A stretch of DNA of 63,959 bases, filler included, from Nemertoderma westbladi (Eukaryota; Animalia; Xenacoelomorpha), in assembly GCA_032718475.1 (NCBI GenBank). It is 3 parts of 3 records of this genome, joined end to end, with 100 filler letters (N's around TTAATTAATTAA, not from the genome) between each part and the next. Parts side by side here need not be neighbours in the genome. Positions count along the whole stretch, not along the records: positions 44,874 to 63,959 come from JAUCBJ010002078.1; 2 more parts are not named here. The stretch is one strand, 5' to 3'. The notes under the pieces are model-generated. The model searched no databases. It was not told the DNA's origin and saw only the letters and a program-made list of their open reading frames with translations. The number at the start of each line of letters is the position of its first letter. Position 1 is the first letter of the stretch. The translations under genes were made by a program, and so were the position numbers. Shown here piece after piece: positions 1-60,035 of the stretch.

Positions 1-536
1 AGTCAGGATGTATGATCAGTTAGCAGTCCGCAGTAGTCGTTGGGGCCGCAGATCAGTTAAAGGATATATGCCCTTTATAATTAAACCTACTAGTGTACGA
101 CTAAAAAACAGTAAAGCACAAAATACTTCCAAGCCGTTCTTTCTTAGGCTCAGGACTGAATGTAAACACTGCACATAGGCATTGCGTCATTTCTCGGAAA
201 TTTTCTGTACAAGGAGCCACAAAAACGCTCTAATTGGCTGACTGAACTGAGAGACGCCGTAGAACAAAGGAAATCAACAGGTATGAATGTCAGCTGTTAA
301 CCGTAGTCATAGTAACTACTGTTCAAGAGTAGCTATCACCCCCTTTGCGTCACGAATTGCCATAGAATCATAAAATATGCCTTTCACAGTACACATACGG
401 AGGAAATAGGTCTTAGATCCTCTAAAAACACCGATACAGCAATAATACGGTCTCTTACACTTATTAAATCAACTACAGAGTATTTTACTGTAAAAGATAA
501 TAAAAATAACGGGGCAATTCAGCAAAGGCTTTTACA
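1..536 (-). mobile_element. Partial LTR of the BEL/Pao family seen elsewhere in the window (cut by the window edge)
   Basis: Ends in AAAGGCTTTTACA (536), like the other LTRs (AAAAGCTTTTACA at 25661, 34503, 54072). 52-150 closely matches LTR C 53615-53710 (TCAGTTAAAGGATATATG...AAGCCGTTCTTTC). Confidence 0.75.
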
Positions 537-21051: not shown

Positions 21052-21151
21052 NNNNNNNNNNNNNNNNNNNNNNNNNNNNNNNNNNNNNNNNNNNNTTAAT
21101 TAATTAANNNNNNNNNNNNNNNNNNNNNNNNNNNNNNNNNNNNNNNNNNNN
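21052..21151. other. Assembly gap with TTAATTAATTAA spacer
   Basis: N runs around an identical 12-mer in both gaps. Confidence 0.97.
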
Positions 21152-24467: not shown

Positions 24468-24478
24468 ATAACTGTTAC
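24468..24478 (-). promoter_or_regulatory. Non-tRNA primer-binding site (GTAACAGTTAT), complementary to LTR segment 25218-25228
   Basis: Abuts the 5' LTR; no TGG; 11/11 complementarity to its own LTR. Confidence 0.7.
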
Positions 24479-25661
24479 TGTTCGCGCTTTTGAAGACCTT
24501 TAGCAGTTTAACCTGCCAAAATTTATATGTCTTTTAGTTAATTAACACACCTTTAGCATACGACAATATTTTATGCTAATAAACAAAACATTAGCCGAAG
24601 CCAGCCCATGCGCGATCATTCACCCGATGGATCTACACCCGGGAGGCTGAATTCGGATGCTTAGATTTTATTATTGCAGTGTAAGGTTGCAGTGTAAGCC
24701 TACTGTATTATTCGATTGATCGCTAATATGTAATTTCTGACAGATATTATTAACTTTCGGGAAATATTAACAGTTCCTTTAGGACGTGGCGCTCTATCTA
24801 TTTAAACAGAGCTAGGACTTATACTAAACGCAACGATAAGGCTTATGATTAAAGTATAAGTCGCATTCTTTAGGAAATGCTTTGTTACCAGTCACATCAC
24901 ACTCACAATCATGCACACTATTCTGCCGACCGTCAGTATATTTGATCACACATAAAGAGAACAGCAATTGACTCAGGTAGTGTCTACTAAATAACATTAG
25001 ATTCAATACACACCACATTGATATAAATCGCAATTGTTATATATAGCCTGTCTCTCTAACCTGTAGTGTATCAAGAAATTGGGAAATTTGGGTGATTTAT
25101 CAATATTCTCCAAATGACAATATTTCATCAACAAATCGATACAATTAATAACTGACGGTAAATAGCAGTACAAACAATATGATTAGTGCAGTTAAATTAA
25201 GTGAGGTAACACCGCCGGTAACAGTTATACTTTCTATAATCTAAGCAGTTTTACTAGAGTTGTTCCAAAAGCCGGTGTTATGGCGAAAAATGGGAACACA
25301 ATAACAGAAACATGTGACTACTACCACTATACGAGTATACCAAAAACCCTTATTCCACGAAGCCCCGTTCAACACAGAGGATGAGTATAGAGATAGGAAA
25401 TTCAGTTCAGTAGCGCTGGGATAGGTCGAAATCAACGCCTACGCAAATTCTATTGGCCGACACGAACAGCAAGGCTAAGGCAACCTCTCTAAGCTAGTTG
25501 GCCGATTAAACTGAGCCCAGATATCTCCGTACAGCACATCAGCCAATAAGCTGGTAGCTTGCACTATTTTAGTTATAAATCCCTTTGAGAGTATTCTAGC
25601 GACTGGGGGGGAACTGGCCAGCAAAGGCAAACGTATCAGTTATCCCACAAAAGCTTTTACA
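24479..25661 (-). repeat. LTR A (5' LTR of copy 1), 1183 bp
   Basis: TGTTCGCGC...CTTTTACA termini shared with LTR B and LTR C. Confidence 0.9.
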
Positions 25662-29215: not shown

Positions 29216-29483
29216 ATCGCCTCCGCTTTGCAGGACATTGCTTTCGCCGTGAGGACCAGCCAGTGCATAATCTTGTACTTTGGCAGCCTCATGGAGTGAA
29301 TAAGCATGGTGGACAGCCCATGACTTTCTTGAGACGCATCTTAAAGGACACTGGCCTTAAAGATGCGGATGATCTAGCAAATGTCATGGGTGATAGGGAG
29401 TTGTGGCGGTGCAATTTTGTTGACAAGCCGGCACAGCATTCTTAAAAATGCAGCTGCAATGCAGCATGCCGATCCTAGTAGTA
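29216..29483 (+). mobile_element. 5'-truncated RTE LINE inserted in a SINE
   Basis: RLRFAGHCFRR..ELWR C-terminus identical to that in 42980-43210; TAG-repeat tail; TSD GTAGCACTG on both sides. Confidence 0.85.
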
Positions 29484-29514
29484 GTAGCACTGTTTGGGCA
29501 CATAGCTTTAAAGC

Positions 29515-33357: not shown

Positions 33358-34503
33358 TGTTCGCGCTTTCAGACCTTTAGCAGTTTAACCTGCCAATTTT
33401 AGGTGTCCTCTTGTTTATAAATCGACTTTAGCCTATAACAATTATTTAATGCACATGAAGTAACATTAGCCGAAGCCAGTCTATGCGCGATCATTCACCC
33501 ACAGTTAAGGGAGACTGGATTCGGATGCTTTGACCTTATTGCGTTGCAGACCTACTGTATTATTCGATTGATCGTTACTATATAATCTCTGACAATATTA
33601 TTCACTTTCGGGGAAATATTAACAGTTCCTTTAGGACGTGGCGCTTTAAGTATAAAACAGAGTTATGACTTATACTAAACACAACGAGATGGCTACTGAT
33701 TTTCGTAAATATCGCATTCTTTAGGAGATGCTTTATTATCTGTCACACTGCTGCATACGACTTCACACTGCTGCACACTGATCTGCCGACCGTCACTGAA
33801 TTTAACCATATATAAGGAGGATAGCAACTGACACATGTAGGGATTATGAAATAGCATTTAATGCACACTAAAACCACTATAATGTAAGTCGCAGTTGCTA
33901 CCGGTAAACCTGTTCCTCTAACCTTTAGTAATCAAGAAGATTTTTATGATTATTCATCGGTATTCTCCAAATATATCAGCAATATACACCAACATATAAC
34001 AATTAATAACCGACAGTAAAATAATGCAGTTTTATTATACAGCAATGTTTAAGGTCAGATGTGTGACCGTAGTTTGGTTTGATAATAGATTTACGTTCTT
34101 GTAATCAAAGCCGTCTAATGTTGGCCAAAGTCTGAAACTTCTAACACAGAAGTACAGAAGAATTTCCAAGCAGTTGTTCTCGCTCAGAAAGGTAAACAAA
34201 GACCGTAATGCATTGCGCGGTTTTCTGTAGGCCTCTTTGCAAGATAAAATGAAAAGCGCTCTGATTGGCTGAGCGAGCTGAACAAAGAAGTTCCACATCG
34301 ACAGTAAATCAGCTGACAGATTTCGTCATCTGAACTACAATCTATTTAGAGTATTAGCGCATTGTGGCATAAAATGGCTTGTTATGTCCGCTAAAACACC
34401 TTCACGGTACATTGCGGAGAAAATGGCTTGTTATGTCCGCTAAAACACCTACACAGTATATTGCGGAGAAAAATGACCTGTTATATCCGCAAAAGCTTTT
34501 ACA
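33358..34503 (-). repeat. LTR B (3' LTR of copy 2), 1146 bp
   Basis: TGTTCGCGC...CTTTTACA; three ~50-bp AAAATGGCTTGTTATGTCCGC repeats near the U3 start. Confidence 0.9.
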
Positions 34504-34581
34504 CCGCTCTCAGAAAATGGGATTTAATTTTATAAAATATTAAAACTCACAGTTTCTAAAATATAAAAATACTCTAAACAG

Positions 34582-35875: not shown

Positions 35876-37624
35876 ATCGTGTAAATCGATAGGATGGCTA
35901 TATGAGTTTATCGATATTATAATTAATTATAATTTAGGCTAGCGGTCGTTGCTGCCTACCCCTCAATGCCCCCGGACAGCGCAAGCTCCTCAGCGCTGAT
36001 GTACTGTCGCCGCTGTGTCTATCGCCAACATAGTAGCTACACAACGACAACAACAACCAGCGCGAGTCACTCCACTGTCCGTCCCAAGGGCTTAGATTTA
36101 CTTCAGGTTCTTACTGCAGAGGTAGGGCTACTTTCACAACTGCGACTCGCTACTGTAAACACACTTTAGTAGTAACATTCACCTATAAACGCACAAATTC
36201 CACACAACTGTCACAAATTGTACACATTCGGGCCATTTGTCCATTAGTCAAGTGCCTTCCAGAATGCCACGTTATTATTATGTATCCCTGGATACTAGCA
36301 GTGCGCTATTTATTCCGTATGCTATTCAATGGGGCAAGCTTTTTATTGTTCTTTTAACTCACTTCTAATTCTAGCGTGGTTGTTGCCATGGTGACATTAT
36401 GGAAAGCTAGCAGTAGAATTAGGGTAATTCTCATGCATACAGATCTGGGATGCTATTTAATAGTAATTCTTTAATTGTCAATACTCCCCCTCACACACGA
36501 TTTTATGAATTTTATCGGCTATTGACCACACACCGGAGACTCTCGCACACTAATACACTTAATAGGGTGAATCTCCGCTCCCATGATCTATTAATTAATG
36601 GAATTTTGGGAATATTATAAATCGTACAAAATAACAATCCATCAAATTCATGAGAAGATATGAATTTAAATTTATTCCCGTAAATTTTATTATTTAATAT
36701 TAAATAGGCACAATTTTATTCCAGAGCATGTCTGGGGACTGGGATCCTTGATTCTAGGAAATTTGTCCTTTTAAGAGTATCGGTAAGTACTACGATATCT
36801 TAATCGACTAGAATTTTTAAAGGATCTAAATTTTAACAGATTTTGATTTATATATTTTCTTGGTTTACAAACTCCTTAGAGTTTATTTGTATGCATTTAC
36901 TCTATTATAACATTTGTTTTAATAGATTTTTATAAATATTAACTATGTAATATTTAAGATGGGCACCAATTTATTCCAGAACATGTCTGGGGACGGTAAC
37001 CATTGATTCTAGAATTTTGTCTTTCAAGTATATCGGTGGGTGCCGCAATATCTTAATCGACTAGAATTACAGATCGTCAAAGGGTTTAACAGATTTATTT
37101 TGCGTTGTATGCTACTGTTAAAGGGACATCACACTACTATATGTATTATTTAATATACGGTATGAGAGCAATATTGCAAGAAGCAATGTCAGTGAGAAGA
37201 GGCAAGTCGTTTCCAAGGTCTACCCAGAGCTTGGTTTAGCCGAGACACGAGGATCTGAACTTTTTGCATTCCTAATACTCTACTTACCAATAATACTTGA
37301 GTATAGTAGGAGCTTTATTGTACTTTAATAAGTACGGATATTTCATCTTACTGTAGTCACGCATTTATAATATGATACGGACAGTAAGGAAAGAGAATAA
37401 AGAGTTATTTCTCGCCGTTCCACTAAATATATAATATAAGTAATTAAGTAATAAACACGAGTATATATTGCACTAATCTACTAAATAATCGCTAAAATAA
37501 CATTCTACTAAATAAAATTAAAGAAAACAATTATTATAAAATTACATAATAATACATACCTAAATATAAAAATAATAAAAAACGAATATAAAATAATATG
37601 GTCACACACCCACTCCAGACACTG

Positions 37625-40600
37625 TTACGTTGGGGAGTCCCTAGATGTTTGTTGGATTAGGGAGGTGGTCGTGGGAAGAGTATCTTGCCTTCCATAGTTT
37701 CCGGACAGTTCTCTGTCTCTTTCCAGTAAACATAAACGACCAACTGGGTGATTGAGCTGCTGTGTTTCGAACACAATTCCAGGTTTCTTAAAGTTACGTC
37801 GCATGACGACGAGTTCTACCGATCGCACTAAACCATCATCGGAGATATAAGTCTCGATGATACGACCTGTCTGCCACCGCTTCGTGGAAGATCTGATTCC
37901 ACAATAAGGACCATGTCTCCGGCGCTGACGTTTTCTTGCTGCGCAAACCACTTGGTTCGAAGTTGTAGCGTAGGCAGATAATGTTTTTCGAAATGGTCAG
38001 CGAAACGATGGGATAATAACTGCATAAGTTGCCAAGTTTGTCGGCAGTATTCGTCTCTGTCCGTGATTTCCGAACGTGGGAGCATGGCTACAGGTTTCTT
38101 CAGTAGGAAGTGCGCGGGTGTTAGCGCTTCCAGGGAGTCGGGACTCGATGAGACTGGCATAAGCGGTCTCTCGTTGAAATAGGCGGCGATTTCTTCCATT
38201 AACGACCGCAAAAGTTCGTCGGTGAGATACGCGTGGCACGGCACTATAAAGTAAAATGTGGTCTTCACGCTTCTTATTAATCTCTCCCAACTTCCTTCCC
38301 ACCAAGGGGCATCGGCGGCGTTGAAGGTCCAGCTAGATGCTGTTACCCTTAGCTGATCGTCCACCTGTCTTTGGTTCCAATCTCTAACGTAAGCCTTGAT
38401 CTCATTATTGGCGCCAATGAAGTTCGTTCCCTTATCAGATCTCATCGTGTTGCTAGTTCCAAAGCGAGCGATCTGTCGGCGTAAACTCAGTATGAAGCTG
38501 TTGGTAGATAGATCGTTCACCATATCTAGATGGATCGCTCTACAAGTCATACAGACAAAGATGACACACCATCGCTTGACTATAGTCCTAGCACGATATA
38601 CTTCAATAGGGCCAAATAAATCCATACCGGTATTAGTAAAGGGTGGTTCATAGAAGCTAATTCGTTCCCTAGGTAATTCTGCCTCTCGCTGTGTTAAAGG
38701 CCTACTGAATGCTTTCCTACAGGGTATATAGTTCCTAAGAACTTGGTTCAGAGCTCTACGGGGTTTATGAAAATAATAGCGAGTTCGAATTTCGCTAAGA
38801 ACTCGTTCTCTACCAGCATGGTAAAGCTTACTGTGAACATCTACAATCATCTTGATTTGTATTTCAAGATTTCTAATGAGTATGGGAAACTTAGTGTCAA
38901 AGGATAATGGAGCATTAGTTAGTCTCCCTCCAACACGTATTAACCCATCTATCATTGTGCTAGAGAAATGATCCCTTAAGCGCATCTGTGGATTTCTCAA
39001 CAACAGGAAATACTTATCGGAATCTTCATAGCATTGCAGGAGTTTCAGTATCTGCTTATTGGTTTCTTCATGCTTCTGGTAACTGATCTTCTCCGTCAGA
39101 AACCTATCTGATATTTTATATTTGGGAAGATCTTTAATAGCATGGACCTGCGCAGATGTCAGTGGAGCGGTATCACTAGCGATCTTCGTCCTGGAGTAGT
39201 GATGATGAAAGCATCGCTTTAAATACATGACGGCCTTACAAAGCCGATTCCAGGAGCTATAGTGATTTATCGCTCTCTGCAGGAGAGGTGATATTCCCTG
39301 CGAGACGTCTGGTGTTCCAGATTTCCAGTCTCTCTCTCTGATTTCCACAACAGACTTATTTGTGGCGGGGGAGTTTAGATCCACAGCGTCGTCCCCGGAA
39401 ATGTGTAGTACAGACAGATCTATCACGGGTTTAAATAACTTTGATTTACTCTTCCGGGTTTTAGGTTTGACTTTCTCCGCTCCCTTGGCTTGTCTAATCT
39501 CAGCCGTGGTAAGATGAGGAGGCCATTCATCTTCTTCTTTACTTAGGAAGTCGGGTCCACCTAACCAGTCCGGAGTATCTATCAGTTCTTGAGGAGTTGC
39601 TCCTCTGGAGGCGATGTCGGCTGGATTAATCATCCCAGGGCAATGTCTCCATTGATCTACACTAGTGCGACTAAGTATAATGGCTACTCTGTTGGTAACG
39701 AAGACGCTGAACTGACAGACTTCATTGGTTATATACTCCAAAACGAGTAAAGCATCAGTCCAATAGACAGTTTTCTCCAGTTGATAGTCGATCTGTTCTG
39801 TGACATTCCGGCCGATGGCTGTAGCATATAGAGCTGCCTTTAACTCCGCTCGAGGAACTCGTAGCTTGTTGTTTATCAAGGCCTTAGAGGTAACCAAGGC
39901 AACTTTAATTCCATCCGGAGTTTCAACTCTCAGGTAGGCTACTATACCTATTCCCATATCGCTGGCATCTACAAACACGTGGAGTTGATAGGAATACGTG
40001 GGGAGAACGTGACCAAAATATGAACGGGAAATTGTAAAGTTCTCGATGGATGGTAGAGAATCTTCCCATTTCATCCACTTCTTTAGTAGTTCTCCCTTAA
40101 GTGGATCGTCCCACGAGTGGTTTTCAAGCCACATTTGTTGAACTAAACTCCGAGCAACCAATATAACTGGGCTAATAAATCCCAATGGATCGAAATAAGT
40201 GCCCAGGATACTTAGACAAATCCATTTAGTTCGAACTGGATTATCTCGCTGTTTTAACTGGAAAAACAGGATGTCTCTCTCCGTGTCCCATTTCAAACCA
40301 AGCGTCTTGGTTTCTGGAAGATCGTCCTTGATTAGGTCCAGGTCTTTAACTCCTCGGTCTTCTACCGGGATCGATTCCAGAAACTCACGGGAGTTACTTG
40401 TGAATTTAGTTAGTCGACATCCACCTCGTTTCAAGCACTCTACCATTCCCTTGGCAACATCAATGGCTTCTTCCACCGATGGGAGGGACTTTAAATTATC
40501 GTCCATGTATATATCCCGTTTGATGTTGTCGATAACCGCTTTAGAGAAGGCGTCTCGGTTGTCATCAGCAGTGGTGCGCACTACTGAACAGGCGTTCGAG

Positions 40601-41079
40601 GGGCTCGAGATGATCCCGAAAGCCTGGATGGTCATCCAGTACTCCACCGGTTTTTGATTGAGGTCTCCTTCAGGCCAACACAGAAATCGTAGGCTGTCTC
40701 GATCCCTATCCAGCGCCTTAACTTGTAAGAACATGCCTTCTATATCCGAGGCGAAGGCGATCGAATATTGCCGTAATCTTAAGAGTATTCCCAACAAGGA
40801 TTGGAGTAAGTTGGGTCCCGGCAACAACTCAGAGTTAAGGGATTGGCCCATGTAAAGGGCGGAGCCGTCAAATACTACCCGAACTTCGTTGGGTTTACCG
40901 GGTTTGGGAACGTAATGATGTGTTAGATAATACGTTCTCTCAGTTATGGGTGTTTCTTCCGGTACTCGCTCCGCATATCCCTTATCGATGAATTTCTTCA
41001 GCTGGGTCTTGTACATCTCTTTAGCTGAAGCATTTGCCGTAAGGCGCTGATGTAGTTGCGCGATTCTCTTCTCCGCCAA
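37625..41079 (-). CDS. BEL pol: RT, Pao RNase H (peptidase A17-like) and integrase; C-terminal frameshift near 37870
   Basis: VRVVFDGS, ASDIEGMFLQ, IYMDD, LHVFVDAS, PRAELKAA, TGMDLFGP, SDKGTNF, WERLIRSVK. Confidence 0.93.
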
Positions 41080-41082
41080 AGG

Positions 41083-42932: not shown

Positions 42933-43412
42933 TACTACTACTACTACTAGGATCGGCATGCTGCATTGCAGCTGCATTTTTAAGAATGCTGTGCCGGCTT
43001 GTCAACAAAATTGCACCGCCACAACTCCCTATCACCCATGACATTTGCTAGATCATCCGCATCTTTAAGGCCAGTGTCCTTTAAGATGCGTCTCAAGAAA
43101 GTCATGGGCTGTCCACCATGCTTATTCACTCCATGAGGCTGCCAAAGTACAAGATTATGCACTGGCTGGTCCTCACGGCGAAAGCAATGTCCTGCAAAGC
43201 GGAGGCGAATTTGTTCTAGTGTCAAGCTTGGGGGAACCAATGAGACACCTCCAATGTTATATAGTGTCTGGTTGGAGATGTATGCATTGTACTTGACACA
43301 ATGAACCCGGCGTAGCATTCTTGTGAATGTGCCATCCAGAGATTTGGTGTCCTCAGCAGTTAGAGCCCAGCATGGACTCCCGTAGAGGAGTACTGGAACT
43401 ACTGCTGCTCTA
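42933..43412 (-). mobile_element. 5'-truncated RTE LINE inserted in BEL gag
   Basis: VVPVLLYGSPCW..RMLRRV..RLRFAGHCFR is an RTE RT C-terminus; (TAG)n tail; 11-bp TSD CCATCATATAT at 42922-42932 and 43413-43423. Confidence 0.92.
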
Positions 43413-44773: not shown

Positions 44774-44873
44774 NNNNNNNNNNNNNNNNNNNNNNNNNNN
44801 NNNNNNNNNNNNNNNNNTTAATTAATTAANNNNNNNNNNNNNNNNNNNNNNNNNNNNNNNNNNNNNNNNNNNN
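44774..44873. other. Assembly gap with TTAATTAATTAA spacer
   Basis: N runs. Confidence 0.97.
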
Positions 44874-44890: not shown

Positions 44891-47800
44891 TTATAAAATC
44901 CTCGATCGCTGGCAGGCTTCCCATTTCATCCACTTCTTTAATAATTCTCCCTTAAGTGGATCGTCCCATGAGTGGTTTTCAAGCCACATTTGTTGTACCA
45001 AACTTCGAGCAATCAATATAACTGGGCTAATAAATCCCAATGGATCGAAATAAGTGCTCAGTATACTTAAGCAAATCCGTTTGGTTCGAACAGGATTATC
45101 TTGCTGTTTTAGTTGGAAAAACAGGATATCTCTCTCTGTGTCCCATTTCAAGCCGAGTGTCTTGGTTTCTGGCAGATCATCTTTGATCAAATCGAGATCT
45201 TTCGCCCCTCGATCTTCCGCAGGGATCGACTCCAGAAACTCACGGGAGTTGCTGGTGAATTTGGTTAATCGAAATCCACCTCTTTTTAAGCACTCTACCG
45301 TTCCCTTAGCGACCTCAATGGCTTCCTCAACTGATGGGAGGGACTTCAGATTGTCGTCCATATATATGTCTCTCTTGATGTTGTCGATCACTTCCTTAGA
45401 GAAGGCCTCTCTGTTGTCCTCTGCAGTAGTACGCACTACCGAACAGGCGTTGGAAGGGCTTGAGATTATCCCAAAGGCCTGGATGGTCATCCAGTACTCC
45501 ACCGGTTTCTGGTTGAGGTCTCCTTCGGGCCACCATAGAAATCGTAGGCTATCTCGATCCCTATCCAACACATTGATTTGCAAGAACATGCCTTCTATAT
45601 CGGAGGCGAAAGCAATCGAATATTGTCTCAATCTTAAAAGAATTCCCAACAAAGATTGAAGCAAGTTGGGTCCGGGTAACAATTCAGAGTTAAGGGATTG
45701 ACCCATGTAAAGAGCGGAGCCATCAAACACTACTCTCACTTCATTTGGTTTACCGGGTTTAGGAACGTAATGGTGAGTTAAATAATACGTTCTTTCAGTC
45801 ACAGGTGTTTCTTCCGGTACCCTCTCCGCGTATCCCTTATTAATAAATTTTTCCAGCTGCGTTTGATACATTGCTTTCGCTGAAGAATTAGCCGTAAGGC
45901 GTCGATGGAGTTGCGCGATTCTTTTTTCCGCCAGGGGTCTATTATTGATGAACTTCGGTTCTCTCTTGCGAAAAGGTAAACCGACTTCGTATCTTCCTTG
46001 ATCTTTGAGGAAACGCGTAGTTGTCTCTTGGATCTGCTTGGCCCTTTCCTCTTCCACTGACAAAGCTTTATCGTAGGAATTGGGCTCTACCGCCTCTTGC
46101 GTAAAGAATCGTACAGCATGTTCATCTCGAGTCTTGGCATTACAACGCTCAATGACGTCATTTAACTCGTCGTTATAAGCTTCTCGTTCAGAGGGATAGA
46201 GAAGTTGACATAAGTTAACTTGGTTTTGCCAAGCCTCGTTTTCCTTAAGGAGATCGATGGTATTCTCCTCATCAAAAAGCTGGTGAACATCGTCGTTATC
46301 TGAGGAGTATGGAATTCCCTCAGTTGAATCGTCTCCCTCACTAGCATCATCTTCCCATTCACTCACCTGGCAGACTCTCTCTTGCGGTAGTCTTTCTCTG
46401 AGTGTTCTACGGGAAGGGCCAGTAAAGTACCAACCTACTCTAGTTCTTACCGCATAGGTCTGTAGGGGCTGCGGTTGAGCAGGCCGTTTCTCTAATGTCT
46501 CCAGCGCCTCACGCGCGTTTTGGCCGATGAGTATTTGCACTCCAGGATAATCAGTCTGGAATCGAGGTATGTTAAGATGTTGGATGCTCTCATCCTCGTC
46601 CCAATCATAAAGGTCTGCTTGAGTAGTAGCGAAGTTCTTTATAGCCACCATTTTCACTGACCTTATGCTGTGTTCTCCTAATTCGTCCTGGGGGGTGGAC
46701 AACGCTCCGACATAATAATCAGCTGTTATTGTAGATTTCCAAACTTGCATAATGCCTGACATGTTGAGCTTAGTTTGGAACTTGGGTTGTCCAGCAAATA
46801 TATTTTCGGCTAGCTCTTTATCGATGAATGTTCCTGTGCTGCCGGAGTCCAGGAGGGCGTTCACTATATAACTCCGTTTAGGTCCGTGCACCCTTACCTG
46901 CACCACAGGAAACTCTCGGATCCCTACATTGGAAGATGGCTCTTTCCAAGATGGTTGTCGTTCAGAAGTAGTTAGAGTAAAGTCGTTCTCTGTATCTTTT
47001 TCATATGTGAGTGCTCGATACACTGCGGTATTTATCATGTAACAGGATTCGTTTTCGTCGGAGAACTCGTCTGTATAGAATCCTTCCATCTCAGATTGAT
47101 CAGTGTCGTTCACATCACTGAATTGGACATGTAGCTCGGAATCACTTACCTGATTCGGACTATTTCGATCGAATTCAGCGTGCAACAAGGTATGATGTTT
47201 CGCACCACACTTTGCACACCTTATGTCAGAGAAACAGGTTCGTCGTTGGTGTCCTTGTCTGAGGCAATTATAACATAACCGCTTATCCCACATGACTTCG
47301 CGTCTCTCTGTTAATGATTTCTTTAGAAATTCATCACACCTATTCAAATGGTGGGTCCCGTCGCACAGCGCACATTTTGGTTTGATGTTACTTACCTTGT
47401 TTTGAGTCACATTGTGTACACTTGCCCTTTCTTCGGGTTTTCTCACCTGAATTCTCTTGGGAGACGTGGGAGGAGTTTTTCTTACCTGTTCCCTCCTGTC
47501 ATTTGTTCGAGACTTAAATTTACTTACCTGATCTTTAGGCATTTTATTCACGTAATAAGATCTATCCGTGTCCTTCCCGCTATCTTCTCCTTGAGAAGTC
47601 TGGCTTTCGCCGTCATCGGTATAACATACTGGTGTTACCTTTCTCCTAGATACGGGTTTTTCACCTACCTTGTTTTCCGGTGTTTTCTCTCTGGACTGCT
47701 TGAGGAGTTGTAATTTCACTTCTCCATCTAGGAATGACATGAGATCAGCCATGGTAGGGTCTCGCCGTTGTTGTTCCATCATATATAACACTTTCTTATC

Positions 47801-50632
47801 CCAGCGTGTACCTACTCCACCTTTCGGTAAAGTAGAAGCCACTGCTCTAATAACCATAGTGTTCTGATACTCATGAGACTTACCTAGCCAATCCAATTGT
47901 CTGCAGATCTCCTGGATCTCATCGGAAAACTCGATAATTCCGCTACTAATAAACTTTCGGGGCGCTACTAACTTTGCATACAAGTACCCAGCGATGTTAT
48001 TCCTATTACCATACCTGATGTTTAGTGTATCCCAAACTTGTCTTAATCCGTCTGGATGTCCAATAAACTTTAACGCCATTAACTTGGGAGATCCTTCCAA
48101 GCACTCGATGAGGTATCTAAGTTTTTCTCCATTAGATAGTACAGAGTTCTGTATGTTATCTTTGTAATATTCATTAAAAGGTAACCATTTCATCTCATCT
48201 CCATTGAACTTGACGATCTCTCCAACCTTTACCGCTTGCCGGGCTTCGGTTCTAGCCATTTGACGCGTAAAACTTTCTTGGGCCATCGTGCTATTTAATA
48301 TCGAGTTATCGGTATATAAATTTCTCGGATTATGATCCGGTCTATAGGGAATATCACTATCAACAGGTCTATAATTACCCTTAATAGGGTTCACTATAGG
48401 AGTTTCTACTTCGCTAGCAGTATAGATGCGTGTAGGCTCCACACCTTCCGCATGAGATACTTCAGACCTAACGGGTTGACACATTGTTACAGAGGGTGGT
48501 GGTATACCCTTTTTTAAGTTTACTAATTTATCGCGTTCTAACGCGATACTTTGCTGCACTTCTTGCAACTCTAACTTACTTTCCCTCACCGTTCCTTTTA
48601 AATGTTGGACAGTCCCTTCCAACTCTCGGACCTGTTGGGAAGAGCGTATCCGATTCTCCTTCATCTCTCCTAGGAGAATATCCATCCCCCGCCGTCTCTC
48701 GTCTACCCAATCAACCACCGAAACGGGATCCGCCAACGTCGTAGCGGGCAGACGAGGGACAACGGGCGACAAATTTGGAATATTTCGCTCGGGGTCCAGG
48801 ATCTGAACTGTCTCCTGGGCAGTTCTACGGGGCACAGGTAGCTTAGTGCTATGCAGAGGGAATTTATAGGTAGCTTCAGGGAGCACAGGTGTATCTATTA
48901 CCGAAGGGGTGATTTCAAGAACAGGCCTAATTATTTCAGGCTCATCTACTATAGTAGGGAGTCTTTCTATTTTAATTATTTGGTCTGTGGGCTCTGTACT
49001 ACCTAAGTTGGTATTATTTAGTTGCCTTCTAACAGCTGGAGGCAAATCAGGCAATTTCTGACGGTGGAATGTTCTTTTACGTCTGCTTAGACGAGATCTA
49101 TTTCCTTTGCCTTCAGTATCGGTGGTATCGCCTTCCTCCGATGATGTATATCCCTGTCTTTTGGGAGTAGATCGATCCATCATCTGCATATTGCTAGCCG
49201 TTAACTGTTTATTTATGCAGTCTTGATTCTCCTGAATGTTTTCCAATTCTAACTGGGTGGTTTCTTCAGTCGCTCTCCGTTCTGCTTCTGCCACTGCCTC
49301 TGCCGCCTTTCTTTCAGCTGCTGCTTCTGCCAAGGTCGCCTTTGCTTCTGCCGCTGCCTCTGCCGCCTTTGCCTCAGCCGCTGCCGCTTTTGCCTCTGCT
49401 GCTGCCTCTGCCGCTGCCACTTTTCTTTCTGCTTCTGCAGCTACCACTGCTGCTTTCTTTCTGTCTTCTATACATTTTTTCTTTACTTGTTCTTCTTGGA
49501 CTCGTGTCAGGCGGAGTTGTTCATCAAATTTAGCCTGATTCGCAGCCCTCATTTCCACATCGATGGCATCCAACACAAGCTTGGTTCCTTCGCTATTAGG
49601 GCTAAGTCCCTCTAACCTTCTCCTCAACTCGTCATCACCTAAAAAACGCTGATAGTCTGACAGATAGATGTCAATGGCATCCCTCTTATGTGGTTTCTCT
49701 GCCGTCGCTTCACTTTCCACTTGGGAAAAAGTGGCGTCTGTTGATTCTCCATGGGTTGATCGCTCCTCCAGCTGAGCTTTCCACTGAGCTGTTCCTTGAA
49801 CTTGGAGATTCGCCCTTTGAAACCAAGTCTTTACGGCAACTTGCAACGACGTGTCTTGTCTTCTTTTAGAAGCCTCCTCAAAGGCGGATAAGATTAGCCT
49901 AATTCGCAGAACTCTTTCTCTAACTTGATAAAGCAGCTGTCCCTGCTCTTGAGGTCCTTGAGGTTGTTTAAACAGTTGTCTTTCTACTCGCTCCATAGAG
50001 CTGAAGAATCCCTGTGCGTATCCGGCTGCGGACCTCTTCCATACAGCTGGATCGATGGTTTCCTTGGCTACTCCCATCCGGTGTATGTCTTCCCAGGCAG
50101 CTTCTGATAAATCAAACGGGAGTCCGGGTCCGGGGAAGTTCCATTGCGACTCGACAATAGACTTCAGTTCTTCACTCGTGTATCCCGCGTAACTATCTCT
50201 AGTTGACCGTTGACTTCTTGCCCAATCGATCTGGTGTTCTTCCACCGCGATCAATAACCCAGCGAGCACGGCTGCAGGAAGGATGAGAAGGGGATCCGTA
50301 TAAACTGCATCCGTCATCTCTGCTCCGCGCTCGGGTGTCAGCTCTACAGTATCCTCACTACTGGAGCTGCTGGGCCGCTGAGGAATAAATTCTTGACTAG
50401 CGGGTTGTTGCTGTTCCGCTGCTTGTTGGTCCCGCTTGACCTGAGCTCGGGTGCCTATGATAGACCTACGATGTTGGACTAGCCTAGGTTCTGTTATTAC
50501 TACTGGAGGGATGACCTTCCTCACAGTGGGAGGTGAACTGAATTTACGACCAGACTGTTGTACGTCTCTATCTGAGTCGCAGATAGTTACATCTAATATA
50601 CTGTCTGACAGGTTCTGCTTAGTATCAGACAT
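44891..50632 (-). CDS. BEL gag-pol polyprotein (long N-terminal extension, DUF1759-like gag, zinc knuckles, protease, RT, start of RNase H)
   Basis: Uninterrupted ORF with ALLDSGS, VRVVFDGS, IYMDD and FDPLGFISP. Confidence 0.95.
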   Translation of the reverse strand: MSDTKQNLSDSILDVTICDSDRDVQQSGRKFSSPPTVRKVIPPVVITEPRLVQHRRSIIGTRAQVKRDQQAAEQQQPASQEFIPQRPSSSSSEDTVELTPERGAEMTDAVYTDPLLILPAAVLAGLLIAVEEHQIDWARSQRSTRDSYAGYTSEELKSIVESQWNFPGPGLPFDLSEAAWEDIHRMGVAKETIDPAVWKRSAAGYAQGFFSSMERVERQLFKQPQGPQEQGQLLYQVRERVLRIRLILSAFEEASKRRQDTSLQVAVKTWFQRANLQVQGTAQWKAQLEERSTHGESTDATFSQVESEATAEKPHKRDAIDIYLSDYQRFLGDDELRRRLEGLSPNSEGTKLVLDAIDVEMRAANQAKFDEQLRLTRVQEEQVKKKCIEDRKKAAVVAAEAERKVAAAEAAAEAKAAAAEAKAAEAAAEAKATLAEAAAERKAAEAVAEAERRATEETTQLELENIQENQDCINKQLTASNMQMMDRSTPKRQGYTSSEEGDTTDTEGKGNRSRLSRRKRTFHRQKLPDLPPAVRRQLNNTNLGSTEPTDQIIKIERLPTIVDEPEIIRPVLEITPSVIDTPVLPEATYKFPLHSTKLPVPRRTAQETVQILDPERNIPNLSPVVPRLPATTLADPVSVVDWVDERRRGMDILLGEMKENRIRSSQQVRELEGTVQHLKGTVRESKLELQEVQQSIALERDKLVNLKKGIPPPSVTMCQPVRSEVSHAEGVEPTRIYTASEVETPIVNPIKGNYRPVDSDIPYRPDHNPRNLYTDNSILNSTMAQESFTRQMARTEARQAVKVGEIVKFNGDEMKWLPFNEYYKDNIQNSVLSNGEKLRYLIECLEGSPKLMALKFIGHPDGLRQVWDTLNIRYGNRNNIAGYLYAKLVAPRKFISSGIIEFSDEIQEICRQLDWLGKSHEYQNTMVIRAVASTLPKGGVGTRWDKKVLYMMEQQRRDPTMADLMSFLDGEVKLQLLKQSREKTPENKVGEKPVSRRKVTPVCYTDDGESQTSQGEDSGKDTDRSYYVNKMPKDQVSKFKSRTNDRREQVRKTPPTSPKRIQVRKPEERASVHNVTQNKVSNIKPKCALCDGTHHLNRCDEFLKKSLTERREVMWDKRLCYNCLRQGHQRRTCFSDIRCAKCGAKHHTLLHAEFDRNSPNQVSDSELHVQFSDVNDTDQSEMEGFYTDEFSDENESCYMINTAVYRALTYEKDTENDFTLTTSERQPSWKEPSSNVGIREFPVVQVRVHGPKRSYIVNALLDSGSTGTFIDKELAENIFAGQPKFQTKLNMSGIMQVWKSTITADYYVGALSTPQDELGEHSIRSVKMVAIKNFATTQADLYDWDEDESIQHLNIPRFQTDYPGVQILIGQNAREALETLEKRPAQPQPLQTYAVRTRVGWYFTGPSRRTLRERLPQERVCQVSEWEDDASEGDDSTEGIPYSSDNDDVHQLFDEENTIDLLKENEAWQNQVNLCQLLYPSEREAYNDELNDVIERCNAKTRDEHAVRFFTQEAVEPNSYDKALSVEEERAKQIQETTTRFLKDQGRYEVGLPFRKREPKFINNRPLAEKRIAQLHRRLTANSSAKAMYQTQLEKFINKGYAERVPEETPVTERTYYLTHHYVPKPGKPNEVRVVFDGSALYMGQSLNSELLPGPNLLQSLLGILLRLRQYSIAFASDIEGMFLQINVLDRDRDSLRFLWWPEGDLNQKPVEYWMTIQAFGIISSPSNACSVVRTTAEDNREAFSKEVIDNIKRDIYMDDNLKSLPSVEEAIEVAKGTVECLKRGGFRLTKFTSNSREFLESIPAEDRGAKDLDLIKDDLPETKTLGLKWDTERDILFFQLKQQDNPVRTKRICLSILSTYFDPLGFISPVILIARSLVQQMWLENHSWDDPLKGELLKKWMKWEACQRSRIL

Positions 50633-51954
50633 GACTATGTATACCGTTGAATGTCTACTGCTGTATTACAGTCTGAGTAAGTCTAGTAACTCAGTATTAA
50701 CTGCTAGCCTAGTAATTAATTACCGGTACTGCTACTCAGTGTAGCGTGATATATATATAATATATTAGAATACCGGTATACTTATAGTATATATAACTAT
50801 ATAAGTATTATTACAGACTAGGTTTATCACAGAATACCGGTATAATTTTAGCACAAATATATATAAATATATAATAGGCCTATCTGGAATACCGGTATAC
50901 AGCTTACAGTTTGTAGGATATATAATTCTGAAATAGAATTAATTACAAGTACCGGTATAATTTCAGCCTAGATTTATAGAAATAAAGATAATAGGCCTAT
51001 CGTAAATACCGGTATATCAATTATTTCAAATAATTGAATTTCTGTTACTTTAGGGTTACTTTGTTACTTTACTTACTTTATTACCGTTATTTGAGCAGTA
51101 GTCCAACTGATATTGAGACCTAATGGTTGTAAGGTAGGCCTACTATTTATAAATCGTTAGATTTGATTTATAATATATATATACCCGTTTTAATGGGTTT
51201 TGTCAATGTTTGAAATAAATGTTATTATTTCTAGGGAGTAATCACTACACAAAGCGGTGTGCTTTCAGTGAAGTGTTACTTATAGGGCACCAAAACAAAT
51301 AATTCTAATTTACCTAAGTTACTTAATACTACAAATTACGTACAATTCGGGTGAGATTACAATCTCTAACTAAACACAAAAATTTACAAAAACACAAAAT
51401 ACGAATTTCAGGGTAATTTTACAAGAAGTCTACAAACCAGCCTAACAAAGGGTTAGAAAACTGGTTATTACAACGGACAGGGTACTACGGTATTTGAAAT
51501 AATAAGTAGTAGTAAATACACTGCGTTGTCCAGATAGGAAAATACCACCGCCTGACGACCTATAGCCGTATCGCTATAGGTTCTACGTTATGTATCACGG
51601 AGTGTTCCTACCTAGAAGTTAATAGAGCTAATCGAATGTGCCTATCAACCACTTTACAACACAGATATAATGTCTACACTAATTACTTCGGAAAGTACTG
51701 TACACTAAACCCTAAATTAGGTACGAGTACTTGTACAACAGATAATCAGTAGTTAAATATACTTGAACAGCTAAAAGAACCACGGCATCTGCTGGAGTGA
51801 CCGATGCACAAAATCACCAGTCTTTACCTACGCCTAGCAGCCCGTGTAGTACCGGGGTTAATTTAACTATAGCGGTATGTATAACAAACACAATTACTGT
51901 AGGAACAAACTTGGGGAATGAATGTTGCGGATAATCGCATAAACTCTGAATAAT

Positions 51955-52520
51955 AAATATTACGCTACGCGTACAAACTACTCAAACAAAATACAGACCG
52001 AACACTGACAGACTACTATCAAGCCTAAACAAACTACGGTATATGCAGACTCCGAAATGATTAGGGAGTATGCGCTCTAACCCAGTAGTGCGACTTATTC
52101 TTTAGTTGGGGGTTTACCTTACAGCGTTCGCTGCCCCTACTCCCTAACCGTACTTAATCAGACAAATGATCTACACACACTGCAATCCGTTCAGACCTAA
52201 TAACAGCCGGACAACTATCCAGCCTACAACTTATCTAAATAAAATTATACGCTACCCGTACAGACTTACACAAACAAAGTACAGACTAAACGATGGCAGA
52301 CTACTCTCAAGCCTAAATAAACTACAGGACATGCAGACTCCGAAATGATTAGGGAGTATGCGCTCTAACCCAGTAGTGCGACTTATTCTTTAGTTGGGGG
52401 TTTACCTTACAGCGTTCGCTGCCCCTACTTCCTAACCGTACTTAATCGGACAGGTGATCTACACACACTGCAATTCGTTCGGACTTAACAGCAATCAGAC
52501 AACAGCTCAGCCTACAAATC
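51955..52520 (-). repeat. Tandem ~290-bp duplication in the BEL leader (copy 3)
   Basis: GCAGACTCCGAAATGATTAGGGAGTATGCG..CCTAACCGTAC occurs twice. Confidence 0.85.
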
Positions 52521-52879: not shown

Positions 52880-52891
52880 TATATCCTTTAA
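52880..52891 (-). promoter_or_regulatory. Non-tRNA primer-binding site (TTAAAGGATATA), complementary to LTR segment 53620-53631
   Basis: Abuts the 5' LTR; no TGG; 12/12 complementarity to its own LTR. Confidence 0.72.
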
Positions 52892-54072
52892 TGTTCGCGC
52901 TTTCAGACCTTTGGCAGTTTAACCCACCAAATTAAGATGTCTTCTAGATATTAAATCGGTTTTTAGTCTATGACAAGTATTTGATTCACTACACTAGTCG
53001 AAACCAATCTGTGCGCGATCATTCACCCGCTGGATATTCCCGGGAGATTGGGTTCGACGGTTTAATTTTATTGCTATGTAAGCCTAATGTATTATTCGAC
53101 TGACAGTATTATATAATCTCTGACAATATTATTCACCTTCGGGAATATTAACAGTTCCTTTAGGACGTGGCGCTTTATCTATATAAACAGAGTTATGACT
53201 TAAACTACTCACAACGATATGGCTTAATTATAATTCACATATATGGCGCATTCTTTAGGAAATGCTTCTTTAACAGACTCACTCATACGCAATGCTGCAC
53301 AATACTGCACACTAATCTGCTAATCTTCACTGATTTTAGTCACATATAAAAGGAACACAGACTGACTCATGTAGGGTCTATCAAATAACATTAGATTCAC
53401 TTCAAACCACTTTAACATAAGTCACAATCGTTATTGATAACCTTTCTCTCTTACCTTCGGTATATCAAGAATATTGGGTGTCGGGGTTATTTCTCGTTAT
53501 TCCAATATAATAATTCATCAACAAATATAATGAATAACCGACAACAAATAGCAGTATGCAGTATTCACAGATCAATCGTGCCAGTTTGTTTTGAGTTAAG
53601 ACAATCAGTCAGTCATCAGTTAAAGGATATATGTCCTTATAATTAAACCTACTAGTGTTGAGCTAAAAAGCAGAAAGCACAAAACACTAAAAAGCCGTTC
53701 TTTCGTGGCTTTGAAAAACTCGTGACTACTGCTCTATACGAGTATACCAACCACTCTTATTCCACGAAGCTCCCGTTCAACACAGAGAAAGAGCAGTGAG
53801 ATAGGAAATTTTCAGTTCAGTACTCTGTGATAGGTCAAAATCAAGGCTAACTCAAATTCTATTGGGAGATACAAAAACAAGGCTATGACGCAACCTCCCT
53901 AGGCTTGTTGGCCGATTAAACAGAGCCCAGATGCCTGCGTACAGCAAATCAGCCAATAAGCTGGTAACTTGCACTATTTTTAGCTGTAGATCACTTTGAG
54001 AGTATTCTTAGCGACTGGGGGGGAACTGGCCAACAAGGCAAACGAATCAGTTATCCCACAAAAGCTTTTACA
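52892..54072 (-). repeat. LTR C (5' LTR of copy 3), 1181 bp
   Basis: TGTTCGCGC...CTTTTACA termini. Confidence 0.9.
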
Positions 54073-54535
54073 GTAATTAATAATAAAAGTAATAGGCACT
54101 TTAAGTACTTCAGCACCATCCTTAAGAAAACGGGCAGGTATTAGGTCTAGACCGGTACTTTTTGAGGCTGATAGGCTAAGTAGATTTTTAAAAACGAAAT
54201 CCTCAGAAACGGGTTTTAAAAATAACTTTTCTGAATTTTGTAACTTTTCTAAATAAAAATTATTTAGAGTTTCGGACCCTATACTATATTTATTACTTGA
54301 TAACGGTAATTTCTTAACTAAATTAGAGGCAACATTAGTAAAATAATTATTAAATAAATTACTAACTAGAGTATGATCATGAATCAGCTCACCGTTATCT
54401 TGCAGAACAATATTCGATTTAGATTTAAGGTTTTTATAACCTAAAGATTTTAGGGTAGACCATAGACTTTTAGGATTATCTTTATTCTCACTTATTTTGT
54501 TGTACAAATATTCAGATTTAGCTTTTTTTTATTTC
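54073..54535 (-). pseudogene. CR1/L2-type LINE ORF2 fragment (region preceding RT)
   Basis: NPKSLWSTLK..LFNNYFTNVA..SKSTGLDLIPARFLKD..PITFIIN; truncated at LTR C. Confidence 0.85.
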
Positions 54536-56998: not shown

Positions 56999-57874
56999 AT
57001 GGACGATGTTATGGGTTCACTATCATTATCTTGTCAATTGGTTCAGTTTGATGAAAGTATAACAACTCGTTTCAACCTTATTATTCCTGGCACGGTGAAT
57101 GAAGTTACAATAAGCGACGTCAAACAGAACATACTCAGTCGTAACTCAAGTAACGCTGGAATTAAAGACAGCAATGTGGTGATTATTAGTAAAGGAAATA
57201 AACTCAAAGACCCATCAACGTTAAAGGAATGTAACATACAGGATGGGGGTGTAATTCAGGCGGTTTGTGTAAATAGCGAACCTAAACTACCGCAAAGTAA
57301 ACAACTCACACCTTCGGAGGCCAAACGAATACTAATCAAATTCAAAACCATTGTTACAGACCCTAATGTAAGAATACAATGCGATGAACTTCTGCAATCG
57401 AAAGACTTATTACAAAAAGTCGCCAAAGAAATGCCACTTTTATTAACCGATAAAATAGCTGTGAAGGTTTTCAACGATTTTGATTTGTTGGTGCGGTTCG
57501 TAGACCCCAAACTAACCAATCGGCTGCTCGCTGAGCACCCACTGCTCGTCGAGGCGGTTGGCCATTTATCCACGATTATAGAAGCCGCCGTTGACGTTGG
57601 CGAGGATGATCTTCCCGCAGTTCGGTTCACCGCTTCCCAACTCTCGTCCGCTCTGCACGACGCCCTGCCAACCGGTCGTTCTCGGATCGCATCCGACGAA
57701 CTCTCCCAGGTCTTCGCTCCCGTCGCCTCCCACGAAGGCCACCAGGTAACCGAGGAGGATGTCAGACAGTTCGAGGAGATGGGAATTGATCGCGAGCGGG
57801 CGAGACGGGCGTTGGCCGCCAGCGGAGGAAATATAAATGCCGCATTCGAACTAATATTCGAGGATAGAATATAG
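56999..57874 (+). CDS. UBL7: Ubiquitin-like protein 7 (UBL-UBA protein)
   Basis: N-terminal UBL (ISKGNKLKDPSTLKECNIQDGGVIQ); UBL7-type middle segment (DKIAVKVFNDFDLLVRFVDP..HPLLVEAV; FTASQLSSAL); C-terminal UBA (EMGIDRERARRALAASGGNINAAFELIF). Confidence 0.8.
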   Translation: MDDVMGSLSLSCQLVQFDESITTRFNLIIPGTVNEVTISDVKQNILSRNSSNAGIKDSNVVIISKGNKLKDPSTLKECNIQDGGVIQAVCVNSEPKLPQSKQLTPSEAKRILIKFKTIVTDPNVRIQCDELLQSKDLLQKVAKEMPLLLTDKIAVKVFNDFDLLVRFVDPKLTNRLLAEHPLLVEAVGHLSTIIEAAVDVGEDDLPAVRFTASQLSSALHDALPTGRSRIASDELSQVFAPVASHEGHQVTEEDVRQFEEMGIDRERARRALAASGGNINAAFELIFEDRI

Positions 57875-58634
57875 AAGAATCTAGTATAATAATAAATTAA
57901 ATAAATAAATAAACTACTATTGTCTAAAAATATACATAGAAGTATTGATGGAATTATATTTGTTTGCAGTAAATCAATAACTAAACTAAACGGATTATAA
58001 CTGAGTAAAAAGTATAATACTTCACATAAAAATAAAAATATATACACAAAATAATAATATACAATTACCCTGTAATATAGTATTTAGTTCAATGTTTCAT
58101 AATATCACCACAACCCTAGAGGCTTAATATAATAATTTCTCTCTTGTTATTGGGATATACCGTACCATCATTTTAATTTTTTTTTACACCCCTACACGAT
58201 AAATCTGTAGTTGGTGTATTACTTTATTTCATCTCTTTTTATTTTATGCCTATGTTGTTTATTTAATTACTGTTGTCCTATCTTTTATAACTAATAATGT
58301 ACACTAATAATCCACTTTTTGTGTAATGGACCCAAACTTGTTACATCGAGACCATTATATTATTTACTATAGACCATAACCAATCATAAATACACTCACT
58401 TTATTTCAGTTTATACTACCATTTGGTACAGCATTACTGACCAGTGATACTTAATTATTATTTATTATATTAATTTCTTATCGTTGTTATTTTATCCAGC
58501 AATCCTTGCAGCTTTCATTTACTACTAGTGTTAGTGTAATTAGTATCATATGTTAACCTTCGACTGCATGATAGATTTATTCTCTAGTTCATTCATTGAT
58601 TAATTAAAACATATAACAACCCCGGAACACCGCA

Positions 58635-60035
58635 ATGGAATTGGTGTCTAACATACAAGAGATCCGAATTAAACTGTCCGGGTTGATAGTAGAAATTAGT
58701 TGTCAACAAGGAGTTTATCTTTACACCTTCATCCATCAACTGGCTCCTATTACACAAAATATTATAACGGAAAGTGATCCTGTGATTGTTTATTTATCGT
58801 GCAATATATTTGCTATCCTCATTATGGGTGTTGAATTTGACGAAGAAGCCAAATTACTCGTTCTAGACTCGGTTTTGTCTTTCGATTCGCTAAAATCGAA
58901 CATTAATGTCGTTGATGTACTGATTAAGTATTTAAATCTTGCAAAAGAACATATTCGTGCTGTAAAGGTGTCTGTCGTTGATATTGTTGATATGAAACGC
59001 AACAATTTATTGTTTGTTGTAGAGAAACTTGGCGAGTTGCTACCCAGATTAATGGACTGCGACCCACGGTTGTTAATATGGGAACGACTGGCAGCACTTC
59101 AAAAGGAACTTATTAAAACTATTCATAAAAATAACTTACCGAACTTCTTTATTAGTAATATAAACGGCGATAATTATTTTGTAACATTGCAGAATATTTT
59201 CAGCTGTAAATCTATTGGTAAATGCGAGTGTAGGGAGAGTTTCGACTGTCTATACCTTTACACCAAATACAACATGCCATTAGAGGACAATGAGTTAGAA
59301 ACATTATGGCAAGGATTACTCGGTCGATTACCCAAACCATCGCCAAGTAATTCTCTCGCCCAATCAGTTTGTTTTAACATCCTACCGTTACAGCTCCCGC
59401 TATGCGCCGCAATACGGGCCGCAGTGGCGCTACTCACTCGATTTCAGTCAACCGATATCTCCAACAAACTCCAATCACTGAGTCTTTCATATAACTCCTG
59501 TACAGTTCTGGAACATAATCTACCAGCGTTCCATTGGATACCTATGCTAATGGCCGACGACGATGCCTATTTAGTTTACTCCTGTACGACTTTGGTAACT
59601 TTAAACCGGAAATCTCAACTTCCTCACCAAATAAACCCGTTGGCTATTTTTTATCATTTTTTACGGATTCATTGTTTCGATGTATCGAGTATTATTGATT
59701 ATTTGATTAGCGATAATGCTATTGGAGTTGATATATTAAAGTATTTAGTTATAACTCTGAAATTATTAAACTGCTATAATGCGAGGTTAGAGAGTTATAC
59801 CCCTAGCTCAACCGGAGATTGGAGTGTTTGCTGCGACACACCAACTGCTCCAAACTCGACAAGTTCCGTATCAGTTGACTCACATCCTGTAGAACTGCAA
59901 CTGAATTCGTTTAGGATACGGGTTGACTCTTTTTTATTCGATTTACTAAATATATTAAATGAGTTGCAGGCTAATTTTCCCTACAATATTAATGCATTGC
60001 GATCAGCTATTAGACGTCTTATTAATGATACTTAA
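58635..60035 (+). CDS. LINS1: Protein lines homolog (Lines/LINS1)
   Basis: Lines-type motifs LMADDDAYL, NPLAIFYHFLRIHCFDVSSIIDYLIS..LKYLVITLKLL and C-terminal FPYNINAL. Confidence 0.75.
   Translation: MELVSNIQEIRIKLSGLIVEISCQQGVYLYTFIHQLAPITQNIITESDPVIVYLSCNIFAILIMGVEFDEEAKLLVLDSVLSFDSLKSNINVVDVLIKYLNLAKEHIRAVKVSVVDIVDMKRNNLLFVVEKLGELLPRLMDCDPRLLIWERLAALQKELIKTIHKNNLPNFFISNINGDNYFVTLQNIFSCKSIGKCECRESFDCLYLYTKYNMPLEDNELETLWQGLLGRLPKPSPSNSLAQSVCFNILPLQLPLCAAIRAAVALLTRFQSTDISNKLQSLSLSYNSCTVLEHNLPAFHWIPMLMADDDAYLVYSCTTLVTLNRKSQLPHQINPLAIFYHFLRIHCFDVSSIIDYLISDNAIGVDILKYLVITLKLLNCYNARLESYTPSSTGDWSVCCDTPTAPNSTSSVSVDSHPVELQLNSFRIRVDSFLFDLLNILNELQANFPYNINALRSAIRRLINDT

What the first reader, a model, noticed from the sequence alone, without database searches (positions are those of the whole stretch)
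52880..53631. Co-variation: copy 3 has a different PBS and a matching different self-primer
Seen: after LTR C comes TTAAAGGATATA (52891-52880), unrelated to the copy 1 PBS, yet its exact 12-nt complement lies at the equivalent LTR position (53631-53620, about 730-740 nt from the U5 end, as in copy 1). Both candidate primers are preceded on the minus strand by ATTATA plus 6 nt. Two different sequences each perfectly paired at the same location is hard to explain by chance or by a fixed tRNA primer. Inference: the primer is copied into the PBS during plus-strand synthesis, so the pair can drift together.
Basis: partly seen in the sequence, partly recalled or inferred. Interest (0 to 1): 0.88.

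Follow-up and report, generated by a model that had tools for sequence, protein, structure and literature searches.

The report
Self-priming signature in BEL/Pao retrotransposon family
Two copies of an animal BEL/Pao jumping gene carry, where a tRNA normally lands to start DNA copying, different 11-letter sites that each pair perfectly only with their own terminal repeat, so the family likely starts copying itself with a piece of its own RNA, which current virus taxonomy does not list for this group.

Summary
Observation confirmed, with one correction. The window holds four LTRs of one BEL/Pao family. Copies 1 and 3 have no TGG/tRNA site; the bases directly after the 5' LTR are the exact complement of an LTR site 750 nt (11 nt) and 740 nt (12 nt) upstream. 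The two sites are not unrelated: 7 of 11 letters match, and all 4 differences are compensated (about 4e-5 by chance). LTR B carries a third version, whose matching PBS shows in contigs of two public runs. Five of five non-TGG BEL/Pao relatives with defined LTR ends also carry an 11-14 nt self-complement, but across an intron in the LTR; the one TGG relative has none. Best reading: Tf1-like self-priming, the PBS being recopied from the primer each cycle (inferred). Not shown: the transcription start, the cleavage, or the copying step; Tf1's flanking helices were not supported. Self-priming is published for Ty3/gypsy and Ty1/copia lineages; my searches found none for BEL/Pao, which ICTV lists as tRNA-primed. 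This scan noted the same thing earlier in other genomes (7 notes).

The parts
52892..54072 (-). LTR C, 5' LTR of copy 3 (1181 nt, TGT...ACA)
52880..52891 (-). PBS of copy 3, no spacer after the LTR, no TGG
53620..53631 (-). Candidate self-primer of copy 3, exact complement of its PBS
24479..25661 (-). LTR A, 5' LTR of copy 1 (1183 nt)
24468..24478 (-). PBS of copy 1 (11 nt)
25218..25228 (-). Candidate self-primer of copy 1; 4 of 11 letters differ from copy 3, all compensated
33358..34503 (-). LTR B, a 3' LTR (1146 nt), different upstream part, followed by non-PBS flank
34082..34092 (-). Third version of the candidate primer (7 of 11 identical to A and to C); its PBS is not in the window but shows in public contigs
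1..536 (-). LTR D, cut by the window start; upstream part only about 60% like C
57..68 (-). Candidate primer in LTR D, identical to that of C
53012..53028 (-). 17-nt block invariant in LTRs A, B, C; can pair with the last LTR bases beside the PBS (not above shuffled controls)
44891..50665 (-). gag-pol frame of copy 3 (DUF1759, three Cys-His knuckles, protease motif, YMDD, start of Peptidase_A17); ends beside an assembly gap
37828..41082 (-). RT-RNase H-integrase frame of the second element (Peptidase_A17, integrase H2C2, DUF5641); RT 93% identical to copy 3

Best explanation
These are BEL/Pao LTR retrotransposons whose PBS pairs with a site in their own LTR, and they likely prime minus-strand DNA synthesis with that 11-nt piece of their own RNA instead of a tRNA. 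Shown: the pairing, its position flush with the LTR end, its copy-specific co-variation. Inferred from Tf1: the LTR site folds onto the PBS across about 740 nt, reverse transcriptase cuts after its last base and extends it through U5 and R; plus-strand synthesis later copies the RNA primer, so the PBS is rewritten from the LTR site. A mutation in the LTR site can thus be passed to the PBS one cycle later, and the pair drifts together as fast as ordinary LTR sequence. Whether the primer begins at the cap, as in Tf1, or lies inside the transcript is open.
For: Exact 11- and 12-nt complements at equivalent places; 4 of 4 differences compensated, own-pair duplex -11.7 and -10.3 kcal/mol against +0.9 and -0.5 for crossed pairs. 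No TGG in the 25 nt after either 5' LTR. C and D share the site and 87% of the 40 nt before it, while the parts on either side are 56-60% alike, near the random level of 54-55%. In contigs of runs X1 and X3, loose ends beside the LTR end match LTR B's site (8 of 8 and 7 of 8 letters next to the aligned part), and another X1 cell matches 9 of 11 letters of A's site. In copy 3 the pair forms in the predicted fold of the whole leader (P 0.52-1.0). Five of 5 non-TGG relatives with two-copy LTR ends have an 11-14 nt self-complement across a GT[AG]AG...AG intron, against 0 of 200 controls each with that donor; the TGG relative has none. Tf1 mechanism: passages of PMC7175516, PMC11042837.
Against: No transcription start was mapped; no TATA about 30 nt upstream, and a TATA-like word 12 nt upstream in D would put the start downstream of the site. 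In copy 1 the pair has only 0.07-0.08 probability in the whole-leader fold. Tf1-type flanking helices are not above shuffles (10-20 of 60 shuffles as good). Only two complete primer-PBS pairs were read on single molecules. A PBS variant at 52887 in about a quarter of the depth has no partner change among the 40 rows shown (142 hidden), so it is untested.
Confidence: 0.78

Rival explanations
1. The pairing is a conserved long-range RNA structure (packaging, dimer or translation switch) kept by selection, and priming uses something else.
For: Co-variation proves pairing, not priming; the R-U5 part has other helices with compensatory changes (6 of 142 predicted pairs).
Against: The helix starts at the first base after the LTR in both copies and is 11-12 nt, the place and length of the Tf1 primer; no tRNA site is left; relatives keep it at offset 0 or 1.
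Confidence: 0.1
2. Self-priming, but transcription starts downstream of the site, so the primer is cut from the 3' LTR copy of the RNA or from a second RNA molecule.
For: TATAAAGG lies 12 nt before the site in D and a similar word in C; nothing TATA-like 30 nt before it.
Against: A and B lack a TATAWA word there; cutting the 3' end would damage the strand-transfer template (inference).
Confidence: 0.08
3. A tRNA half or other host RNA primes, and the LTR match is chance or a duplicated leftover.
For: ICTV lists the family as tRNA-primed (PMC8742986); I had no tRNA library to test internal tRNA matches.
Against: A fixed host RNA cannot fit three PBS versions; 4 of 4 compensated changes.
Confidence: 0.03
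4. Assembly artefact in a high-copy repeat.
For: The window has N gaps and joined element parts.
Against: No gap between PBS and site in either copy; mis-joins would break, not make, copy-specific pairing; the LTR-PBS joint is spanned in runs X1, X3, X4.
Confidence: 0.01

Closest known systems
Tf1, Tf2, Tj1 and the Tf1/sushi and Tcn1 groups (Ty3/gypsy chromoviruses)
   Same: 11-nt LTR sequence complementary to a PBS beside the 5' LTR, no tRNA site (passages). Copy 1's site begins with ATAAC, the five letters quoted for Tf1 in PMC11042837; with n=1 this may be chance.
   Different: BEL/Pao proteins, no chromodomain found; site 735-750 nt before the LTR end; start of transcription unmapped; three-helix 'pretzel' (PMC10085805) not supported; at least three primer versions in one family.
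TAR lineage (Houba, Osr-1) of plant Ty1/copia
   Same: Self-priming predicted from an LTR complement of 10 nt or more starting 0-5 nt after the LTR (PMC6317226); both copies here meet that rule.
   Different: Different superfamily and host kingdom.
Belpaoviridae / BEL-Pao LTR retrotransposons
   Same: DUF1759, Peptidase_A17, DUF5641, order PR-RT-RH-IN, LTRs of 1.15-1.18 kb within the 0.2-1.2 kb range.
   Different: ICTV gives an 18-nt PBS for tRNA-Arg or tRNA-Gly; absent here.

Membership tests
BEL/Pao (Belpaoviridae) | Gag and Pol of BEL/Pao type, integrase after RT and RNase H | tested here: met
   Pfam PF03564, PF05380, PF17921, PF18701; the 120 listed homologues all carry PF05380
BEL/Pao (Belpaoviridae) | LTRs of 0.2-1.2 kb with TG...CA ends | tested here: met
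   1146-1183 nt, TGT...ACA
BEL/Pao (Belpaoviridae) | 18-nt PBS for a host tRNA 3' end (ICTV profile) | tested here: not met
   No TGG in 25 nt after LTR A or C; this is the finding. Family placement rests on the proteins.
BEL/Pao (Belpaoviridae) | Paired LTRs with target-site duplication | tested here: inconclusive
   No whole element: gaps at 21052-21151 and 44774-44873; flanks of C and B do not match
Tf1-type self-priming (mechanism) | PBS beside the 5' LTR complementary to about 11 nt of the LTR | tested here: met
Tf1-type self-priming (mechanism) | [quoted passage not shown] | not testable with these tools
   No raw RNA reads; only contigs. Motif scan gives no TATA at -30.
Tf1-type self-priming (mechanism) | Two flanking duplexes (pretzel) | tested here: inconclusive
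   Candidates exist but 10-20 of 60 shuffles do as well
Tf1-type self-priming (mechanism) | Cleavage after base 11 by reverse transcriptase | not testable with these tools
   needs biochemistry
Tf1/sushi group (lineage) | Ty3/gypsy chromovirus Pol | tested here: not met
   BEL/Pao domains only

The most novel reading that the evidence does not exclude
A broad marine branch of BEL/Pao has dropped tRNA priming and cuts its primer from inside its own transcript, not from the capped end as Tf1 does. In most members host splicing of an LTR intron builds the primer; this family is an intron-free form in which primer and PBS turn over as a self-copying pair (4 of 11 letters) while reverse transcriptase stays 93% identical, giving each subfamily a private primer.
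Probability: 0.4. Interest if true: 0.82.

Novelty: new variant of a known kind. Interest (0 to 1): 0.66.

Why it matters
Self-priming would then occur in all three LTR retrotransposon superfamilies, against the ICTV statement that Belpaoviridae use a host tRNA. It would explain BEL/Pao elements with no findable PBS, free them from control through tRNA pieces (inference), and give a natural test of whether a PBS is rewritten from its primer: a high-copy family with several primer versions lets the lag between LTR site and PBS be counted.

Tried and rejected
LTR motif scans: viral contigs 0 hits; metagenome contigs 16 hits, all chance word matches of 17-27 nt. Protein scans of viral contigs: none confirmed. 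Rfam: 0 matches in LTR C at E up to 1 and in the window at gathering score; ARAGORN 0 tRNAs, so no element-encoded tRNA. No RNA holder listed among runs; contigs cannot show a start. Spliced complement in the window's own LTRs A and C: none, the match is contiguous. TGTAAAAGC at 10399 (+) is not another LTR by inspection. Of 27 related loci, 6 had both LTR ends defined; 7 short ones were left out of the blind scan, and of the 20 scanned, 16 gave no hit, mostly with LTRs cut off (6 hits of 3274 candidates against 3 of 3274 shuffled; 4 of the 6 fall on true LTR ends, 2 on a hairpin inside the L019 LTR; the stricter acceptor filter missed L037 and L041). L019 has an 11-nt spliced candidate but no defined end and was not counted. 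Host taxon not found: no homologue of 56999-57874 at E 1e-15; the protein atlas did not answer.

Full report
What the region is. The window is AT-rich eukaryotic DNA with four assembly gaps. Its long minus-strand frames are BEL/Pao gag-pol: DUF1759, Peptidase_A17, integrase H2C2 and DUF5641, three Cys-His knuckles, a protease motif and YMDD. The best homologues are at most about 41% identical, and the named ones come from fish, molluscs, echinoderms, crustaceans and insects, so the host is an animal; I could not narrow it. Four LTRs begin TGTAAAAGC: A 25661-24479, B 34503-33358, C 54072-52892, and D from 536 off the window start. A and C are 5' LTRs whose internal parts end at gaps; B is a 3' LTR. 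No whole element with a target-site duplication is present.

The observation. After LTR C the next 12 bases are the exact complement of 53631-53620; after LTR A the next 11 are the exact complement of 25228-25218; the sites lie 740 and 750 nt before the LTR ends. Each 11-mer occurs once on the plus strand of the window, at its own PBS. Only 26 of 124,162 positions give such an anchored match 700-780 nt upstream, the real cases included. Given four changes in the PBS, the chance that they hit those places with those letters is 3.7e-5. Own pairs are stable (-11.7, -10.3 kcal/mol), crossed pairs are not (+0.9, -0.5). Neither PBS region has TGG.

More copies. LTR D has C's site unchanged and 87% identity over the 40 nt before it, but 60% further upstream and 56% over the 55 nt after it, near the random 54-55%: the site and its lead-in are a conserved island. 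Public contigs agree: summed depth is 328k at 53631-53679 against 82k just downstream in X1 (196k against 60k in X3), two X3 joints resume at 53621, and loose ends fall at 53617-53618 in X4 and X5 (depth is not copy number). LTR B has a third 11-mer in register, 7 of 11 like A and like C. Laying 4 of the 7 listed runs on C's PBS, the loose-end cell at 52888 ends in the letters of window 34093-34086 (minus strand) in X1 (8 of 8, 7 contigs, overall agreement 0.56) and X3 (7 of 8, 3 contigs), so a B-type PBS exists beside a family LTR end; an X1 cell at 52892 matches 9 of 11 letters of A's site. These are majority cells of mixed contigs, so they support but do not prove linkage; X1 may be the window's own source. 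One search also lists G at 52887 in 112,937 of 446,007 depth (X1) and 72,896 of 267,322 (X3), the letter copy 1 has there. Its predicted partner, C at 53624, is not among the 40 rows shown (142 hidden): untested. The short stretch hid a variant known (52871), so one search is not a full list.

Relatives. A profile scan of prokaryote genomes returned 27 BEL/Pao loci, likely animal DNA in bins. Six had both LTR ends defined. One, L033, has TGG and no self-match. The other five have none of 11 nt contiguously, but, following a lead from earlier scan notes, each has an 11-14 nt complement across an intron with a GT[AG]AG donor and pyrimidine-rich acceptor; 0 of 200 control 25-mers per locus reach that with such a donor, and 0-2 of 200 with any GT. 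In an RT tree of 44 rows the window's two RTs (93% identical) join a 29-row group with four of those five (L024 had no RT segment), L033 outside; support is only 90/90, below the starred level. Because as few as 3 of the paired bases lie in the first exon, these primers can hardly start at the cap (inference).

Mechanism. [quoted passage not shown] Applied here (inferred): the LTR site primes, is copied in plus-strand synthesis, and rewrites the PBS, while the new LTR site comes from the 3' LTR. A change therefore enters the LTR first and the PBS one cycle later. That fits sites diverging 4 of 11 between subfamilies while LTR ends are 78-80% alike and pol DNA 82%. Stepwise selection could give the same end state; only many copies can separate them.

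Against. The start of transcription is unknown: no raw RNA reads, no TATA 30 nt upstream, and TATAAAGG 12 nt upstream in D. The pair forms in the predicted fold of C's leader (0.52-1.0) but hardly in A's (0.07-0.08). Tf1's two flanking helices (PMC10085805, passage) have candidates, one using a 17-nt invariant block, but 10-20 of 60 shuffles do as well. Only two pairs were read on single molecules.

What is known. Self-priming is described for Tf1/sushi and Tcn1 (Ty3/gypsy) and predicted for TAR (Ty1/copia) (PMC6317226, PMC4600332, passages). The ICTV profile, read whole, gives Belpaoviridae an 18-nt tRNA-Arg or tRNA-Gly PBS (PMC8742986). Term searches within two BEL/Pao surveys found no mention of PBS, tRNA or priming (PMC554778, PMC3118150). 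Ten library searches (listings) and passages of PMC3601003, PMC5443660, PMC2864245, PMC5341516, PMC13524379, PMC6934838 and PMC8220671 showed no self-priming BEL/Pao. Subscription journals, Repbase reports and supplements were not seen and may hold it. Seven earlier notes of this scan report the same in other genomes, none on this genome or sequence; they are leads, not support.

Verdict. A real, co-varying self-complementary PBS in a BEL/Pao family, likely self-priming (0.78). It works like Tf1 as far as tested but is not a Tf1/sushi member. New variant of a known kind; interest 0.66.

Noticed in passing
L023, L024, L028, L037, L041: BEL/Pao elements in prokaryote genome bins (likely mis-binned animal DNA). 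Each PBS pairs with 11-14 nt formed only across a GT[AG]AG...AG intron of 76-697 nt in its LTR; 3-7 nt lie in the first exon.
   Followed up: yes
L017-L043: 27 loci in the prokaryote genome collection encode BEL/Pao Pol, pointing to animal DNA in those bins.
   Followed up: partly
window 52892-53560, 24479-25170, 33358-34020: The last 650 nt of the LTRs are 78-80% alike with invariant blocks and hairpins with compensatory changes, while the upstream parts differ by subfamily; no Rfam match. May be a structured RNA element.
   Followed up: partly
window 53662-53690 and 100-125 (-): Pyrimidine tract plus AG, like a splice acceptor, 32-33 nt before the candidate primer in LTRs C and D; not found in A or B.
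   Followed up: no
window 51945-52518 and 23626-24207: Two-copy tandem repeat of about 288 nt in the 2.2-kb leader of copies 3 and 1.
   Followed up: no
window 34504-37827 (-): 3.3 kb between pol and LTR B with extra frames (228 aa at 35040-35726, 130 aa at 34582-34974), no Pfam match.
   Followed up: partly
window 54073-54528 (-): Copy 3 interrupts a frame that resembles the part of a LINE ORF2 before the RT domain (recalled likeness; no Pfam match).
   Followed up: no
window 42938-43208 and 29217-29487: A 271-nt insert, 100% identical at two places in opposite orientation, splits the gag of the second element: a young small mobile element.
   Followed up: no
window 56999-57874 and 58617-60035 (+): Intron-free frames: ubiquitin-like plus UBA domain protein, and a weak Lines-family match.
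   Followed up: partly
window 972-4561 and 13295-15136: Frames with HECT, integrase core (rva_4) and NADAR matches, perhaps other large mobile elements.
   Followed up: no
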